DNA of 64,000 bases. It comes from an uncultured Bacilli bacterium. GTDB lineage: Bacteria > Bacillota_I > Bacilli_A > RF39 > UBA660. Within the stretch, counting starts at the first letter, position 1. Every line of letters starts with the position of its first letter. Below the pieces are notes generated by a model that saw only the letters and a program-made list of their open reading frames with translations, was not told where the DNA came from and searched no databases. Shown here in pieces: positions 14,964 to 39,549 of the stretch. The translations under genes were made by a program, and so were the position numbers. The stretch covers positions 441 to 64,440 of the forward strand of contig CANRCV010000004.1 in the NCBI GenBank assembly GCA_947629205.1. Reading direction: 5' to 3'.

Positions 14964-15083
14964 TCCTTATTATTCCATTTTTAATATAACAAAAAAAAGT
15001 AAAGTTATGAATAATTTTACTTTATTTTTACTCTTCTTTACTTAAATTTTACATTCTATTATTTTACATAATATTGACTTTTC

Positions 15084-16268
15084 TTATTCATCAATATGTT
15101 TGTCATACTCTATATCTGCTATTTCATAGTGTTGATTATTACCAATAAAACTTAAAATCTTGGTAGCAATCCATCCTACTAAAGCTAGAGCAAAGAAATA
15201 CACAAAACCAAAAATAGTAAATGTTGGAGCAGAATCGGTGATAAGTCCAATAATGGATGCTCCAGCACTCATACTAGTAACAATGGTTAGGCTATCAATA
15301 GATTTATTGGTAACATCACTTTTTAAACTAGAAAATAATTTTTGAGCAGATGACACGTACGTTTGCGTCATATCCCATAAATATTTAATATAATCTAAAG
15401 TATCACGTAATGTTTCAAAACGATATCCAGAAATAGCTAAAAATTCTGTTAATTCTTTATCACTCTTAGCAATTCTTTCACGAGTAGAAATATACGTACC
15501 CATTTGATTAATTCTTCCATCGATTAAGTTAATTGTTTTGGCATATCCTTCTAGTTTACTATTAAACTTAACGATATCTGCCCCCTTAACATGAGCATTT
15601 TCTTTAACTTTATCAATTTTTTCCCAAATAATACGATGAAGATTTAAATAGCGATGCATTTGGCCTTTAAATTCACGTATAAAAATTTGTTCTTCAATAT
15701 ATTTTTCGATTTTATCTAAAGAAGACTTTTTATTATTAATAAAATAATATTTATCTCCTCTTACAACATCATAGCGATCATTATTAAATTCAAAATATTT
15801 TTGTTTTTCAGTTCTCGAAAGTAAATCCGCAATATTTTCTTTCGTTGCTTTATCAATCACAATAAAATAGGGATAAACAGTTTCAATATGAGCAAGTTCT
15901 TTAGGAACTGGAGCTCCTAAACTAAATAGATAATTAAAAGCTGGAGATAGTTTATTTTCATAATAATCAGTAACTTTTTCTAAATCTGCAAATAAAGTAT
16001 TTTCACTAACATGATGATTATTCAAACAAATTAAACCATCTTCATAAATTTTAACGGATATATCATAAGCAGTCGTAAACTCAATAAATTCTTCTCCATC
16101 TACTCCATAATCAATTTTACCAATCGCTAATTCTTTACGATAATTTAATAATTTATCATGATCCAAATCTAATTTTGTTCTAGCTTCTCTTAAAAAATCA
16201 TAGATTTCTGTTAATTGTAACATGGTTCTTTGAAACCAACCACCTATATATACATTTGATATTTTCAT
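15084..16268 (-). CDS. Hypothetical protein with C-terminal pair of TM helices
   Basis: 394 aa; large soluble N-domain then two TM segments; immediately downstream of GNAT gene, probably co-transcribed. Confidence 0.5.
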   Translation of the reverse strand: MKISNVYIGGWFQRTMLQLTEIYDFLREARTKLDLDHDKLLNYRKELAIGKIDYGVDGEEFIEFTTAYDISVKIYEDGLICLNNHHVSENTLFADLEKVTDYYENKLSPAFNYLFSLGAPVPKELAHIETVYPYFIVIDKATKENIADLLSRTEKQKYFEFNNDRYDVVRGDKYYFINNKKSSLDKIEKYIEEQIFIREFKGQMHRYLNLHRIIWEKIDKVKENAHVKGADIVKFNSKLEGYAKTINLIDGRINQMGTYISTRERIAKSDKELTEFLAISGYRFETLRDTLDYIKYLWDMTQTYVSSAQKLFSSLKSDVTNKSIDSLTIVTSMSAGASIIGLITDSAPTFTIFGFVYFFALALVGWIATKILSFIGNNQHYEIADIEYDKHIDE

Positions 16269-16284
16269 ACATCTAATCTCCTTT

Positions 16285-16719
16285 TTAAATATCTATACTA
16301 AAGAATGTAGAATCATCAGGAACAAATCCAAATTTTTTATAACAGGTATGAGCAGGAATACGAAAATTTCTACTCCATAGTTTCATAGCAGTACAATTAT
16401 GATTCTTACATATATTTTGTACGACTTCTAACATTTTGGTTGCAATGTGATGCTTACGATACTCCGGTTTTACACAAACATGATTTAAGATAGCATAGGT
16501 ATTCATATCTTCAAAAATTGTCGGTATAATAGCAATTCTTGTATGAGCAATAATTTTATCATCTAATTTTCCTACTACATATATTTGATTACGATCTTTG
16601 TATTCTTGAAAAAGTTCTATTGCTTCTTCATACTTTGTTTCTTCTTCAAAACATTCATTACATAAATCTACAATTCCTCGTATATCAGCAACTGTTGCAA
16701 TTTGAAATTCGACATTCAT
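16285..16719 (-). CDS. GNAT-family N-acetyltransferase
   Basis: 144 aa; acetyl-CoA binding-like segment (HHIATKMLEVV); RBS GAGGTG 9 nt upstream. Confidence 0.7.
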   Translation of the reverse strand: MNVEFQIATVADIRGIVDLCNECFEEETKYEEAIELFQEYKDRNQIYVVGKLDDKIIAHTRIAIIPTIFEDMNTYAILNHVCVKPEYRKHHIATKMLEVVQNICKNHNCTAMKLWSRNFRIPAHTCYKKFGFVPDDSTFFSIDI

Positions 16720-16740
16720 TTTGAATCACACCTCTACTAT

Positions 16741-16772
16741 TTTAAGTTTATAACCCCCCCCCCGTGTGTCAA
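16741..16772 (-). promoter_or_regulatory. Putative sigmaA promoter of GNAT gene with poly(G) in the spacer
   Basis: Minus strand TTGACA(16772..16767)-CAC-G10-T-TATAAA(16752..16747); spacer 14 nt in the sequenced state, 17 nt if the tract were G13. Confidence 0.45.
16754..16763 (-). repeat. Homopolymeric G10 tract (C10 on + strand) in promoter spacer
   Basis: Ten consecutive C on + strand in an otherwise ~28% GC region. Confidence 0.9.
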
Positions 16773-16804: not shown

Positions 16805-16836
16805 AAATAAAAAAATTCAATTTTATATATTGAATT
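16805..16836 (-). terminator. Intrinsic terminator downstream of endA-like gene
   Basis: aaaaattcaat-tttatat-attgaattttt perfect 11-bp stem flanked by A/T runs. Confidence 0.55.
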
Positions 16837-16856
16837 TTTTAATAGTTATACTTATT

Positions 16857-36786: not shown

Positions 36787-37917
36787 TTATTTTCCTAAAT
36801 ATGTAATTCTTGCATATCCATTTCCAGAATTTCCAACCATTGTATTTTGTGTTCCATCATGTTTGGGCATAACCTCTTTCCCGGATTTCATTTCCGTATT
36901 TGTAAAAACAAGTCCGGAATAATGAATAGAATCTCCAGTATGTTGAATGTTATTTTCAACAGATTCTTGTTTTATGGCATTACATCCCTCATATCCAGAA
37001 ATAAAGGATGAACCACCTGAGGCTGAGGTTGCATTTGTAATTCCTTCACTACGACCACCATAATAGCCTCCTCCAGCACCAGCAACACCACAATCGCCAT
37101 TACCAACACTACCTGATCCAGCACATTGGCCATCTCCAACCCCACTTTGTCCTTTACCAAAAGCATAACCAGTTGTTTGATTGATTGCTGATTTTGTTCC
37201 AACTAAATCAGCAGATAAGCCACCTCCTGCTCCTGGAGCGTAACTCCAGCTAGCTCCTCCACCACCTGCTGCAACCATAATTCTAGATTTTAAACTAGCA
37301 AAAGAGTCCCACAAACCATTTACAAGACGAATGTCGGTGGCTCCTCCTCCACCACCACTACTTTCATCATCTGCTTTATCAGGAACACCATTACCACCAC
37401 CATTATATCCACCAAGAGATTCTACTCTTTTACTAGCATTTGCACCAGCACCACCTACATAAAGATATAATGTTTGCTCTTTTTGTAAGCTTATTTCACC
37501 TTTGGTATATGCACCATTTCCTCCATCATTATAAGACACACCTTGATAAAGAGATTTTCCACCTTCAGCTCCCCATAATTCTATTTTATATTTTCCTTGT
37601 AATGGTACTGTAAATGATTGTTCACTTCCTGTATAATCAAATGTCCATTCTGTTCCTTCTTTTATAATAAAATTAATGCTACATGTCGTTGGACTCTTTT
37701 TTAGACTTGATACAAATAATCCCCATCTCTCTGTATCCCATTCTCCAATGGCATCATTATCACATTCTACAATTATATCTCCATAGTTTCCTTTTTGTGG
37801 AACGGTATTTGTTGTTTCTCCATTTATTTTCAAAGCAATGATATTTACATCGTTTTTTAAACTAAAATCAGGTACAACGCCTTTTATAACATCAAAACTT
37901 TTTTCTGTTTTATACAT
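36787..37917 (-). CDS. Phase-variable surface protein with ALK/LTK-like glycine-rich domain; annotated ORF is the out-of-frame body of a longer gene
   Basis: 376 aa ORF; no RBS before its Met; reading frame open upstream through the G10 tract; Gly-rich region GGGYYGGRSEGITNATSASGGSSFISG resembles ALK GRD GGGGYIGGNAASNND...DGVSFIS (Pfam Gly_rich). Confidence 0.7.
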   Translation of the reverse strand: MYKTEKSFDVIKGVVPDFSLKNDVNIIALKINGETTNTVPQKGNYGDIIVECDNDAIGEWDTERWGLFVSSLKKSPTTCSINFIIKEGTEWTFDYTGSEQSFTVPLQGKYKIELWGAEGGKSLYQGVSYNDGGNGAYTKGEISLQKEQTLYLYVGGAGANASKRVESLGGYNGGGNGVPDKADDESSGGGGGATDIRLVNGLWDSFASLKSRIMVAAGGGGASWSYAPGAGGGLSADLVGTKSAINQTTGYAFGKGQSGVGDGQCAGSGSVGNGDCGVAGAGGGYYGGRSEGITNATSASGGSSFISGYEGCNAIKQESVENNIQHTGDSIHYSGLVFTNTEMKSGKEVMPKHDGTQNTMVGNSGNGYARITYLGK

Positions 37918-38035
37918 AGCAAAAGTATGGTATAGTGTTATACCACCAATTAATAAAATAATTCCTATAATTGTACTAATTAAAATTTGTTTTTGTTTTT
38001 TATTTTTGATAAATCTTTCTAATCTAGGTTTGTGT

Positions 38036-38098
38036 TTATCTAATATACCCCCCCCCCAGACTAGACTCTAGAGTTGGGAGGTTTTTATTTTTCTTCAT
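38036..38098 (-). other. Leader ORF ending just after the G10 tract (OFF-state product of the phase-variable gene)
   Basis: GGAGGAAG RBS + ATG 38098; encodes MKKNKNLPTLESSLGGGYIR-stop; a 9-G allele would fuse it in frame to ...ILDKHKPRLERFIKNKKQKQILISTIIGIILLIGGITLYHTFA-MYKTEKSF (TM anchor). Confidence 0.7.
38048..38057 (-). repeat. Homopolymeric G10 tract (C10 on + strand) inside 5' coding region
   Basis: Ten consecutive C at 38048..38057; frame analysis shows G9 (or G12) gives an in-frame full-length protein. Confidence 0.9.
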
Positions 38099-38234: not shown

Positions 38235-39371
38235 TTACTGATTTTCATTTATAAATATTCTATAAGGATTTTGTTGAGTTCCATTACCACTTTGAAATAA
38301 TACTTTTGATTTAAGATAGAAAGACGGATAAATTTTAGTATTACTATAATATCCAGCATGAAAGTTCCATAATTGGCCTGTTTCATCCATGTACCATGCA
38401 TCTGGATTCCCAGAGATCGTTGTTGTCAAAAACCATTGTTTGTTCTTGCTAAATATCCAATTATTTATTACACATGAGCTATTATCACTCTCATTATTCC
38501 ATAGTTTTAAAGATTGTTGCATACATTGTGTTCTAGTTTTTAAAGCTGATCCGCTTGTTGCATATCCATAATCACTTGCATATATTAATCCAATTTTTGT
38601 ATTAGTTGATTTAGAATAACCATCACGAACACTATTTCCACGTTCTGCTTTATAAAATTCAGTTACGGTACTTAAATTGGTTTCCCCTAAATACCATTTT
38701 GCAATATCAATATACGTTTGATATGATTTTATACTACCCCAAAATTCTTCATTTAAAATATTTGTATTTAATTCGCTACTAATCCAATTATTTTGTTGTA
38801 ATTCTGGATGTCCATACCAAGAAGCTTCACTGTAGTTAACATATTTAATTAATTTTACTCTATCTTCATAAATTCCATTCTCACTTGATTGAGTAGGTAT
38901 TATACCTATAATTCGATATAAATTGTTTTCACTACATTCTCCATTTTCTTCTAAACATACATAGTTATTAGGATTAGCACCTATATATCGATAGTCCGTT
39001 TTAGCACTTTCACCAGTTTGATCAGTAGCTTCGTGTGTTTGCACTATTAATCCACTTGCTCCATCTGCAACATTTGTTACTTTTGATTTTAAATAAGTAG
39101 AAAATATTGGAGCATTAAAATCAATGGTACATTTAATTCTACTTTGATTATTGCTGTTTTTTAATTTTAAAGACCATGTTGTATCATCCCAATCTGCTTC
39201 TACTCCACCATCACATTTTATATCTTTCTTAGTAAATCCTTCATTTTGATTAGGAAAAGAAACATCACTTGTTTTTACACCATTTATACTAAAAGCAAGT
39301 GTTACATCTCCACTACTAAAATCAGGCACAACACCTTTTATAACATTAAAAGACTTTTCCATTTTATACAT
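38235..39371 (-). CDS. Phase-variable surface protein paralog (divergent C-terminal domain); annotated ORF is out-of-frame body
   Basis: 378 aa; first ~85 aa homologous to 36787..37917 product (MYK.EKSF.VIKGVVPDFS...EWD..W); C-terminal Trp/Tyr-rich domain ending GNGTQQNPYRI; same upstream architecture. Confidence 0.7.
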   Translation of the reverse strand: MYKMEKSFNVIKGVVPDFSSGDVTLAFSINGVKTSDVSFPNQNEGFTKKDIKCDGGVEADWDDTTWSLKLKNSNNQSRIKCTIDFNAPIFSTYLKSKVTNVADGASGLIVQTHEATDQTGESAKTDYRYIGANPNNYVCLEENGECSENNLYRIIGIIPTQSSENGIYEDRVKLIKYVNYSEASWYGHPELQQNNWISSELNTNILNEEFWGSIKSYQTYIDIAKWYLGETNLSTVTEFYKAERGNSVRDGYSKSTNTKIGLIYASDYGYATSGSALKTRTQCMQQSLKLWNNESDNSSCVINNWIFSKNKQWFLTTTISGNPDAWYMDETGQLWNFHAGYYSNTKIYPSFYLKSKVLFQSGNGTQQNPYRIFINENQ

Positions 39372-39486
39372 AGCAAAAGTGCGGTATAAAGTTATACCAC
39401 CAATTAGTACTATGATTCCTACTATTGTACTAATTAAAATTTGTTTTTGTTTTTTATTTTTAATAAATCTTTCTAATCTAGGTTTA

Positions 39487-39549
39487 TTATTTAATATACC
39501 CCCCCCCCAGACTAGATTTGCTGGTTGGGAGGTTTTTATTTTTCTTCAT
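39487..39549 (-). other. Leader ORF ending after G10 tract, copy B
   Basis: ATG 39549; MKKNKNLPTSKSSLGGGYIK-stop; G9 allele fuses to ...ILNNKPRLERFIKNKKQKQILISTIVGIIVLIGGITLYRTFA-MYKMEKSF. Confidence 0.7.
39499..39508 (-). repeat. Homopolymeric G10 tract (C10 on + strand) inside 5' coding region, copy B
   Basis: Ten consecutive C at 39499..39508; same -1 requirement for in-frame fusion as copy A. Confidence 0.9.

What the first reader, a model, noticed from the sequence alone, without database searches (positions are those of the whole stretch)
16719..16772. Third G10 tract sits in the -35/-10 spacer of the GNAT gene promoter (transcriptional phase variation?)
Minus-strand reading gives TTGACA-CAC-GGGGGGGGGG-T-TATAAA-CTTAAA...GAGGTG-N9-ATG (GNAT start 16719). 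With G10 the TTGACA-to-TATAAA spacing is 14 nt, which is non-functional. Only the weaker TAAACT hexamer sits at 16 nt. G13 would give the optimal 17-nt spacing to TATAAA. Homopolymer length changes in promoter spacers are the established mechanism for graded or on/off phase variation (Neisseria opc/nadA, Haemophilus hif). The controlled unit is probably the GNAT acetyltransferase plus the 394-aa two-TM protein immediately downstream.
Basis: partly seen in the sequence, partly recalled or inferred. Interest (0 to 1): 0.7.

Follow-up and report, generated by a model that had tools for sequence, protein, structure and literature searches.

The report
Poly-G switch in a gene promoter
A run of ten G's sits inside the promoter of a two-gene operon in an uncultured gut bacterium, and matching G-runs in related species change length between samples, so it is most likely a known kind of slippage-driven expression switch found in a new lineage and on an unusual target.

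Summary
A G10 run (window 16754-16763, minus strand) lies between TTGACA and a -10 element, 35 nt upstream of the GNAT start codon. Chance predicts about 0.001 such runs in this 28.5% GC window, and three are present.

Comparative evidence supports a hypermutable promoter-spacer tract:
- The -35 (TTGACA), the -10 (TAAACT) and the RBS are conserved in three tract-less relatives. Only the spacer differs: 18 nt in them, 16 nt here.
- G tracts of 6-11 sit in the same promoter position of the same operon in at least five other species. These account for 5 of the 10 long G/C runs in about 1 Mb of related loci.
- In two of those species the tract length varies (G9/10/11 and G6/7/8) between samples that are otherwise free of SNPs. 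Interrupted tracts are stable.

The conserved -10 is TAAACT, not TATAAA. G10 therefore gives a 16-nt spacer, which is suboptimal but not clearly dead, and G11-G12 rather than G13 would restore 17-18 nt.

The controlled unit is the GNAT plus a highly conserved 394-aa membrane protein with a CorA-like fold. No reads or sister strains of this species were available, so variation here is inferred. This is a new member of a known mechanism and is moderately interesting.

The parts
16767..16772 (-). -35 hexamer TTGACA
   Evidence: Read directly. TAATTGACA is invariant in the window, L003, L004 and L008.
16754..16763 (-). G10 homopolymer (C10 on + strand) in the promoter spacer. Proposed slippage-prone tract.
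   Evidence: About 0.001 expected by chance. Replaces an AT-rich spacer in the closest relatives. Equivalent tracts vary in length in related species.
16745..16750 (-). -10 hexamer TAAACT, 16 nt from the -35 at G10
   Evidence: Best minus-strand promoter match in the scan, 10 of 12. TAAACT is invariant in the window, L003, L004 and L008, at a fixed distance from the RBS.
16747..16752 (-).
   Evidence: Present but not conserved in relatives. Lacks the T at the last position.
16729..16734 (-). Ribosome-binding site GAGGTG, 9 nt before the ATG
   Evidence: ATAGTAGAGG is conserved in relatives.
16285..16719 (-). GNAT-family N-acetyltransferase gene, 144 aa, first gene of the unit
   Evidence: Pfam PF00583, 58.2 bits against a cut-off of 20.7. 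Only sub-threshold matches to specific NCBIfam families such as RimI and AAC(6'). Best PDB sequence match is a polyamine acetyltransferase, E 5e-6.
15084..16268 (-). 394-aa membrane protein with a CorA-like fold and two C-terminal TM helices. Second gene, starting 17 nt after the GNAT stop.
   Evidence: No Pfam, NCBIfam, PADLOC or PDB sequence hit. AF2 pLDDT 92. The top 41 Foldseek PDB hits are all CorA, ZntB or CmaX, E 3e-5. 74-93% identical across 80 species.
16809..16840 (-). AT-rich 12-bp hairpin plus T-run after the upstream endonuclease gene. Terminator-like; isolates the GNAT promoter.
   Evidence: hairpin -7.1 kcal/mol. Function is inferred.
14991..15023 (-). AT-rich hairpin plus T8 after the 394-aa gene. 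Terminator-like; probable end of the two-gene unit.
   Evidence: weak, -3.6 kcal/mol. Function is inferred.

Best explanation
The G10 run is a slippage-prone simple-sequence repeat that forms most of the spacer of a sigmaA-type promoter. The promoter reads TTGACA - CAC-G10-TTA - TAAACT and drives a two-gene operon: a GNAT acetyltransferase and a conserved membrane protein with a CorA-like fold.

Gain or loss of single G's during replication changes the -35/-10 distance. G10 gives 16 nt, G11 gives 17 nt, and G12 gives 18 nt, the spacing of the tract-less relatives. Transcription of the operon should then step up or down heritably and reversibly in a subpopulation of cells. The assembled G10 state is probably a reduced-expression state rather than a dead one.

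**Shown:** the anatomy; conservation of both hexamers and the RBS; recurrence of the tract at this promoter in other species; length polymorphism of those tracts on identical backgrounds.

**Inferred:** that this species' tract also varies; where the TSS lies; that expression follows tract length.
For: 1. The tract cannot be chance. Three C10 runs are observed against about 0.001 expected, with none of 7-9.

2. The other two G10 runs in the window are classic translational switches in the 5' coding region of two surface-protein paralogues. G10 gives a 20-aa stub; G9 or G12 gives 436/437 aa. The organism therefore uses poly-G switching.

3. TAATTGACA, TAAACT and ATAGTAGAGG are invariant in the window and in L003, L004 and L008. 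The spacer between them is unrelated in sequence and is 18 nt in all three relatives.

4. In about 1.0 Mb of loci from roughly 100 related species there are only 10 G/C runs of 7 or more. Five lie 43-52 nt upstream of the GNAT ATG, between a -35-like and a -10-like hexamer: L013, L021, L049, L054 and L116.
   - Binomial P is 2e-9 if the runs are treated as independent.
   - P is 8e-4 if the four promoters that look similar are counted as one event.

5. L021 species, 11 independent samples.
   - The seven samples with zero SNPs over 3.4 kb carry G9 (3), G10 (3) and G11 (1).
   - The other two haplotypes carry interrupted tracts, G4AG5 or G5AG4. Each is identical in both of its samples.
   - The tract is the only internal indel in the 3.4 kb alignment.
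   - In 14.3 kb across six samples, all four A8/T8 runs are invariant.

6. L013 species: G8, G7 and G6 on a 1-kb background that is essentially free of SNPs.

7. Four contigs end exactly at the tract: L097, L099, L107 and L139.

8. The mechanism has direct experimental precedent. In N. meningitidis porA a poly-G tract lies between -35 and -10; 11G gives high expression, 10G about 2-fold lower and 9G about 6- to 13-fold lower (PMC3639595).

9. No Rfam family matches the intergenic region.
Against: - There are no data for this species. The exact GNAT, 394-aa and endonuclease proteins are not on record, and a flank-pattern scan of the metagenome collection found nothing. Variability of this particular tract is by analogy only.
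- One tract-bearing species (L049) shows G8 in all five contigs, although three of those runs have consecutive accession numbers and may be related.
- In the reference assemblies most tract promoters have off-optimal spacers of 13-15 or 18-19 nt. The ON length cannot be assigned from sequence. The simple rule that 17 nt is best may not hold for G-rich spacers.
- Length differences between short-read assemblies could partly be homopolymer errors. The invariant A8/T8 runs and the stable interrupted tracts argue against this, but they do not control for G-specific error.
- The target is an intracellular enzyme plus a highly conserved membrane protein. It is not a typical surface antigen, so no selective rationale is evident.
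- The TSS is not mapped.
Confidence: 0.7

Rival explanations
1. The functional -10 is TATAAA, so G10 (14 nt) is a true OFF state and G12-G13 is needed for ON.
For: In the five other tract-bearing promoters the G run abuts the -10-like hexamer directly, as in Gn-TATAAT or Gn-TATACT. Here G10 is followed after one base by TATAAA. Both coding-region tracts in the window are also OFF at G10.
Against: TATAAA is not conserved, whereas TAAACT is invariant in the three tract-less relatives at a fixed distance from the RBS. TATAAA lacks the T at position -7, one of the most critical bases of a -10 element (established knowledge). The scan scores TTGACA-16-TAAACT at 10 of 12. The two hexamers overlap and both might be used at different tract lengths.
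Confidence: 0.15
2. The tract is a fixed piece of spacer in this species. It would be a relic of one insertion event, with a low slippage rate (for example under intact mismatch repair), and the promoter would be constitutive with a 16-nt spacer.
For: No variation data exist for this species. The L049 species shows G8 in all five contigs. All three tracts in the window are exactly 10.
Against: Uninterrupted tracts of 8-11 G at the homologous promoter vary on SNP-free backgrounds in two species. The window has two further G10 tracts placed exactly where frameshift switches work. Runs of 7-9 are absent, which argues for selection on long tracts.
Confidence: 0.15
3. Assembly or sequencing artefact. 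The tract, or its length, is an error such as a poly-G artefact of two-colour chemistry or a long-read homopolymer miscall.
For: Homopolymer lengths are error-prone. Contigs of relatives often break at the tract. The sequencing platform of the window is unknown.
Against: Unique conserved sequence flanks the tract on both sides. Equivalent tracts appear in independent studies and assemblers. Tracts of 10 and 11 occur at coding-region sites in L004. The presence of the tract is therefore real. Only its exact length (plus or minus 1) could be wrong.
Confidence: 0.04
4. The G run works other than through spacer length. It might be a protein-binding site or a rigid G/C block that affects promoter melting, or part of a 5' leader if transcription starts further upstream.
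For: Reference-state spacers in relatives are mostly not 17 nt. A G/C block next to the -10 could influence open-complex formation (general knowledge).
Against: No better upstream promoter is evident, and an upstream hairpin plus T-run separates the region from the preceding gene. No Rfam match. The tract always lies between a -35-like and a -10-like hexamer although the flanking sequences differ. Length polymorphism is the one observed property.
Confidence: 0.08

Closest known systems
Neisseria meningitidis porA promoter poly-G tract
   Same: A homopolymeric G run of about 9-11 between the -35 and -10 hexamers. Single-G changes alter spacing and give graded expression: 11G high, 10G about 2-fold lower, 9G about 6- to 13-fold lower (PMC3639595). 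This is the same proposed mechanism and the same tract length range.
   Different: porA is in a Gram-negative pathogen and its target is a major outer-membrane antigen under antibody selection. Here the host is an uncultured low-GC gut member of the Bacilli, and the target is a cytoplasmic GNAT plus a conserved CorA-fold membrane protein. Expression was not measured here.
Neisseria meningitidis opc promoter poly-C tract
   Same: A homopolymer within the promoter whose length sets high, intermediate or no expression (my own knowledge; not checked in the held library).
   Different: opc encodes a surface adhesin, in a different phylum. The tract position relative to the hexamers differs in detail.
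Mycoplasma hyorhinis vlp poly-A promoter tracts and M. mycoides Vmm TA repeat in the promoter spacer
   Same: Promoter-level SSR switching in a low-GC lineage related to Bacilli/Mollicutes. ON/OFF switching follows insertions and deletions in a promoter homopolymer or in the promoter spacer (review PMC10502178).
   Different: Those repeats are poly-A or TA and control variable surface lipoproteins. Here the repeat is poly-G, in a 28.5% GC genome where G runs are otherwise absent, and it controls a conserved core operon.
Campylobacter poly-G/C phasome
   Same: A low-GC genome in which G/C homopolymers of 8 or more are the switching elements. Most lie in ORFs and a consistent minority are intergenic. 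Switching rates are 1e-4 to 1e-3 per division in the absence of mismatch repair (PMC8355987). The window shows the same mix: two coding tracts and one promoter tract.
   Different: A different phylum. The mismatch-repair status of this organism is unknown. Campylobacter targets are mostly surface-structure genes.
CorA/ZntB/CmaX divalent-cation channels (for the 394-aa protein)
   Different: No GMN motif. No Pfam CorA hit for the window protein, and distant relatives reach only 26.4 bits against a cut-off of 27. TM-scores are low, about 0.3. The substrate is unknown. Within this gut clade it is always paired with a GNAT.

Membership tests
SSR-mediated transcriptional phase variation (promoter-spacer type) | A simple-sequence repeat long enough to slip (homopolymer of about 8 or more) | tested here: met
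   G10 at 16754-16763. About 0.001 expected by chance.
SSR-mediated transcriptional phase variation (promoter-spacer type) | [quoted passage not shown] | tested here: met
   TTGACA and TAAACT flank the tract. Both are invariant in three tract-less relatives while the spacer is not. This is the best minus-strand promoter match. The TSS itself is not mapped.
SSR-mediated transcriptional phase variation (promoter-spacer type) | Repeat length is polymorphic within or between populations of one strain or species | tested here: inconclusive
   Met for homologous promoter tracts in two related species: G9/10/11 and G6/7/8 on SNP-free backgrounds. Not seen in a third species (L049). No data exist for the window's own species.
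SSR-mediated transcriptional phase variation (promoter-spacer type) | Expression level changes with repeat length | not testable with these tools
   Needs reporter fusions or RNA-seq of length variants.
SSR-mediated transcriptional phase variation (promoter-spacer type) | Switching is reversible and frequent (well above the base-substitution rate) | tested here: inconclusive
   Indirect only. There are three tract lengths among seven samples with 0 SNPs in 3.4 kb, while interrupted tracts are stable. Rates and reversibility need culture or deep reads.
GNAT acetyltransferase superfamily (first gene) | Match to the GNAT fold/domain model above the curated threshold | tested here: met
   PF00583, 58.2 bits against 20.7. 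No specific equivalog reaches its cut-off, so the substrate is unknown.
CorA metal-ion transporter family (second gene) | Architecture: cytoplasmic alpha/beta domain, stalk helix, two C-terminal TM helices | tested here: met
   AF2 model with pLDDT 92. The top 41 Foldseek PDB hits are all CorA, ZntB or CmaX.
CorA metal-ion transporter family (second gene) | Sequence match to Pfam CorA (PF01544) above the gathering score | tested here: not met
   No hit for the window protein. Distant family members reach 26.4 bits against a cut-off of 27.
CorA metal-ion transporter family (second gene) | GMN signature motif at the end of TM1 | tested here: not met
   TM1 reads ...LTIVTSMSAGASIIGLITDSAP.... No GMN is conserved in the family alignments. 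It is therefore filed as CorA-like in fold, not as a CorA family member.

The most novel reading that the evidence does not exclude
A conserved core operon, a GNAT paired with a non-GMN CorA-fold channel-like protein and often followed by an ABC or MFS exporter, has repeatedly come under poly-G promoter switching in reduced-genome gut Bacilli. The tract looks ancestral in one group of species and apparently arose independently in the window's lineage and in L049. That would mean these uncultured commensals bet-hedge on an ion or small-molecule transport and modification function, not only on surface antigens. It would also point to a strong, fluctuating cost of expressing this channel in the gut, for example as an entry route for a toxic cation, an antimicrobial or a phage.
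Probability: 0.3. Interest if true: 0.6.

Novelty: new member of a known kind. Interest (0 to 1): 0.45.

Why it matters
Promoter-spacer homopolymer switching is textbook for a few pathogens, including Neisseria, Bordetella, Mycoplasma and Campylobacter. My limited searches of the held library found no description of it for the uncultured, genome-reduced gut Bacilli that are common in human, mouse and rabbit microbiomes.

If the reading is right, these commensals carry a small poly-G 'phasome'. It would consist of surface proteins switched by frameshift plus one conserved GNAT/CorA-like operon tuned at the promoter.

This has a practical consequence. Metagenome assemblies will break at these tracts or report arbitrary lengths there, and gene callers will truncate the switched genes.

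It also has a biological consequence. It flags an unannotated but highly conserved membrane-protein family, 74-93% identical across species, as something whose expression the cell needs to vary. That gives a handle for working out what the family does.

Tried and rejected
**Looking for the same species elsewhere.** All attempts failed.
- Exact-protein look-ups of the GNAT, the 394-aa protein and the endonuclease (with its ATG start) found nothing.
- The dUTPase matched only two 0.7-0.8 kb contigs that do not reach the tract.
- A flank-pattern scan of metagenome contigs allowing G6-G16 gave 0 hits.

**The 120 listed GNAT homologues** from the first protein search did not include the tract-bearing species. 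Exact cluster look-up solved this.

**Sequence-based annotation of the 394-aa protein** gave nothing from Pfam, NCBIfam, PADLOC, PDB phmmer or a PDB profile search.
- The first AF2 model, built from a shallow alignment, was mediocre (pLDDT 73).
- Only the deeper alignment plus Foldseek gave a clear CorA-superfamily answer.
- The afdb50 library was unavailable.

**Rejected ideas.**
- A defence-system reading of the GNAT/membrane-protein pair: no PADLOC hit, and the pair is core and syntenic.
- A riboswitch or ncRNA in the leader: no Rfam match.
- An alternative upstream promoter: nothing better.
- The idea that the two coding-region tracts are also promoter tracts: their -35 positions match 1-3 of 6 by eye, while the frame analysis is clean.

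Full report
**1. What is in the sequence**

Two -10 candidates overlap:
- TATAAA at 16752-16747, 14 nt from the -35
- TAAACT at 16750-16745, 16 nt from the -35

The window is 28.5% GC. From base composition about 0.001 C10 runs are expected on the + strand. Three are present, at 16754, 38048 and 39499. There are no runs of 7, 8 or 9 and there is one run of 6.

The consensus match alone means little in this AT-rich DNA. The scan found 23 promoter-like sites in 3.5 kb against 23.2 in shuffles, although TTGACA-16-TAAACT is the top minus-strand hit at 10 of 12.

**2. Context in the window**

The ATG at 16719 opens a 144-aa GNAT acetyltransferase (PF00583, 58 bits). A 394-aa ORF follows 17 nt after its stop.

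An AT-rich 12-bp hairpin with a T-run at 16840-16809 follows the preceding endonuclease gene. A weaker hairpin with T8 at 15023-14991 follows the 394-aa gene. The terminator function is inferred. No Rfam family matches the intergenic region.

The other two G10 runs lie about 45 nt into the reading frames of two paralogous surface proteins that are anchored at the N terminus. With G10 each frame stops after 20 codons. With G9 or G12 it runs on for 436/437 aa. This organism therefore carries textbook translational poly-G switches, which makes a third, promoter-located tract credible as a switch.

**3. Who it is**

The 394-aa protein found 80 loci in species-representative genomes. All are uncultured gut MAGs labelled Bacilli, Tenericutes, Mollicutes or Erysipelotrichaceae, from rabbit, mouse and human. 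One is a 1.2-Mb circular contig.

The nearest are two rabbit MAGs, L003 and L004, at 93%. The GNAT lies directly upstream of the 394-aa gene in all 80 loci. I infer a genome-reduced gut lineage of the class Bacilli. I could not determine the order.

**4. Which hexamers are real**

I aligned the GNAT upstream region of the window with L003, L004 and L008.
- TAATTGACA, TAAACT and ATAGTAGAGG are invariant.
- The spacer between the hexamers is unrelated in sequence.
- The spacer is 18 nt in all three relatives and 16 nt in the window. The alignment places a 2-nt gap there.

The conserved -10 is therefore TAAACT. It also keeps the three critical positions T-12, A-11 and T-7, which TATAAA does not (established knowledge of sigma-70-type promoters).

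Under this reading G10 gives 16 nt, G11 gives 17 nt, and G12 gives the ancestral 18 nt. The G10 state is most likely reduced in expression, not necessarily off. It is G11-G12, not G13, that would restore canonical spacing.

**5. The tract recurs at this promoter in other species**

In the 857 kb of the 80 loci there are only nine G/C runs of 7 or more.
- Four lie 43-52 nt upstream of the GNAT ATG: L013 (G8), L021 (G11), L049 (G8) and L054 (G9).
- Three are in the 5' coding regions of surface-protein genes.
- One is a G8 in a TTTACA-N7-G8-TATAAT promoter upstream of a 512-aa surface protein in L032.
- One lies inside a minus-strand ORF in L066.

In a further 140 kb of metagenome loci the single long run is again in the GNAT promoter: L116, TTGACA-N9-G7AGG-TATACT.

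So 5 of 10 long runs fall in about 0.6% of the sequence. The binomial P is 2e-9. It is 8e-4 if the four promoters that share the pattern T[TC]GACA, A-rich stretch, C(G/T)TC, Gn, TA are counted as one ancestral event. The loci were chosen for this operon, and the species are related, so these figures are indicative only.

The tract-bearing species are not each other's nearest relatives. Each has closer relatives without a tract. The window's promoter and L049's promoter differ in sequence from the other four. The picture is one older tract promoter with losses, plus at least one or two independent gains.

**6. Do such tracts vary?**

I could not test the window's own species. For relatives I retrieved independent assemblies that carry the identical GNAT protein.

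*L021 species, 11 samples.*
- The flanks are identical over 100 nt.
- The tract is G9 in three samples, G10 in three, G11 in one, G4AG5 in two and G5AG4 in two.
- It is the only internal indel in a 3.4-kb alignment that has 17 SNP columns.
- In 14.3 kb across six samples, all four A8/T8 runs are invariant.
- The seven samples with uninterrupted tracts have zero SNP differences from one another yet show three tract lengths. The two interrupted alleles each define their own haplotype, 10 SNPs away, and are identical in both of their samples.
- Pure runs that vary while interrupted runs stay fixed is what slipped-strand mispairing predicts.

*L013 species.* G8, G7 and G6 occur on a 1-kb background that is essentially free of SNPs.

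*L049 species.* G8 in all five contigs. Three have consecutive run accessions and may come from one study.

*Other observations.*
- Four contigs end at the tract.
- One member of the L054 90%-identity cluster lacks the tract altogether.

*Caveats.* These are consensus assemblies, some at low coverage. G-specific homopolymer error is not fully excluded.

**7. Geometry in relatives**

Reference-state spacers are as follows.

| Locus / species | Spacer (nt) |
|---|---|
| L013 | 13-15 |
| L021 | 17-19 |
| L054 | 18 |
| L096, L098, L116, L049 | 19 |

Most are one or two steps from 17. There are two possible readings. Natural populations may mostly sit in low-expression states. Alternatively, the optimum for a G-rich spacer may not be 17. 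I cannot decide between these, so ON and OFF lengths stay unassigned.

**8. What is being controlled**

*The GNAT.* No specific family assignment was possible. RimI and AAC(6') matches are sub-threshold, and the best PDB sequence match is a polyamine acetyltransferase at E 5e-6.

*The 394-aa protein.*
- It has no Pfam, NCBIfam, PADLOC or PDB sequence match.
- It is far more conserved than the GNAT: 74-93% against 50-70% identity across the same species.
- The family is small, with about 250 clusters at 50% identity.
- With a diverse alignment AlphaFold gives pLDDT 92. The model has an N-terminal alpha/beta domain, long helices, a 70-residue helix that runs into TM1, and a second TM helix.
- The top 41 Foldseek hits in the PDB are all CorA, ZntB or CmaX (E 3e-5, probability 1.0, about 300 columns).
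- Distant members graze Pfam CorA at 26.4 bits against a cut-off of 27.
- There is no GMN motif, so I call it CorA-like in fold and not a CorA.

*Neighbours.* In 26 of the 80 loci an ABC exporter follows directly, and in four an MFS transporter does. In the window a terminator-like site and deoD follow. A distant homologue outside the clade stands alone without a GNAT.

The pairing of an acetyltransferase with a channel-like protein and an exporter suggests handling of a small cation or a polyamine-like compound. That is conjecture.

**9. Comparison with known systems**

The closest analogue is porA of N. meningitidis. It has a poly-G tract between -35 and -10, with 11G giving high expression, 10G about 2-fold lower and 9G about 6- to 13-fold lower (PMC3639595).

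Promoter homopolymer or spacer repeats also switch vlp in M. hyorhinis and Vmm in M. mycoides (PMC10502178). Campylobacter uses G/C homopolymers in ORFs and, less often, in intergenic regions (PMC8355987).

The mechanism proposed here is the same. Three things are new: the lineage, the target, and the recurrence of the tract at one conserved operon across species. My searches of the held library found no paper linking these gut Bacilli to SSR phase variation, but this is weak negative evidence.

**10. Verdict**

The -10 is TAAACT, G10 gives 16 nt, and the optimum is G11-G12.
- Confidence that this is a length-variable promoter tract that modulates the operon is about 0.7.
- The main gap is the absence of any read-level or strain-level data for this species, and of any expression data.
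- Novelty: a new member of a known kind.
- Interest: moderate, 0.45.

Noticed in passing
window 38048-38057 and 39499-39508 (C10 on +, G10 on -), genes about 36787-38097 and 38235-39549 (-): Two paralogous N-terminally anchored surface-protein genes carry G10 about 45 nt into the reading frame. G10 gives a 20-aa stub and G9 or G12 gives 436/437 aa, so both are OFF as assembled. ORF callers start them at an internal ATG after the TM helix.
   Followed up: yes
window 36787-37917 (-): The downstream paralogue carries an ALK/LTK glycine-rich domain (PF12810, E 2e-53). This domain is named after animal receptor kinases, and here it sits in a phase-variable bacterial surface protein. The other paralogue has no Pfam hit.
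   Followed up: partly
window 15084-16268 (-): The 394-aa protein belongs to an unannotated family that is highly conserved (74-93% identity across 80 species, about 250 clusters at 50% identity). A confident AF2 model (pLDDT 92) shows a CorA-superfamily fold without the GMN motif. Within the gut clade it is always preceded by a GNAT.
   Followed up: partly
L087-L096, about 4.3 kb downstream of the GNAT start (after the ABC exporter and a truncated amidase gene): Gene content differs completely between samples of one species: Fic+Mrr, OLD-TOPRIM+UvrD helicase, nSTAND3+S8 peptidase, AbiEii, or N6/N4 methyltransferase. This looks like a defence-island hot spot.
   Followed up: no
L087-L092, alignment columns 13430, 13449 and 13801 (small gene after the ABC exporter): Three different 1-nt frameshifting indels between samples change the called product between 63, 100 and 130 aa. 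One is an A7/A8 run. The gene may be decaying or may be another variable gene.
   Followed up: no
L032 2326-2352: A G8 tract in a TTTACA-N7-G8-TATAAT promoter 42 nt upstream of a 512-aa surface protein. Promoter-spacer poly-G tracts are therefore used for other genes in this clade as well.
   Followed up: partly
L084/L095, L087 (G4AG5) and L086/L092, L093 (G5AG4): Two different G-to-A interruptions both fix the tract at a total length of 10, giving an 18-nt spacer. Each marks its own haplotype. These may be locked alleles, which would hint that the 18-nt state is favoured in some lineages.
   Followed up: partly
L097, L099, L107, L139 (contig ends): Four metagenome contigs end exactly at the promoter G tract. 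This fits either population heterogeneity or poor poly-G coverage. It is a practical warning for assemblies of these organisms.
   Followed up: no
window, whole: Base composition is strongly skewed between strands: on the + strand T 39%, A 32%, C 17%, G 11%. All substantial ORFs in the stretches listed (13-20 kb and 35.5-42 kb) are on the minus strand.
   Followed up: no
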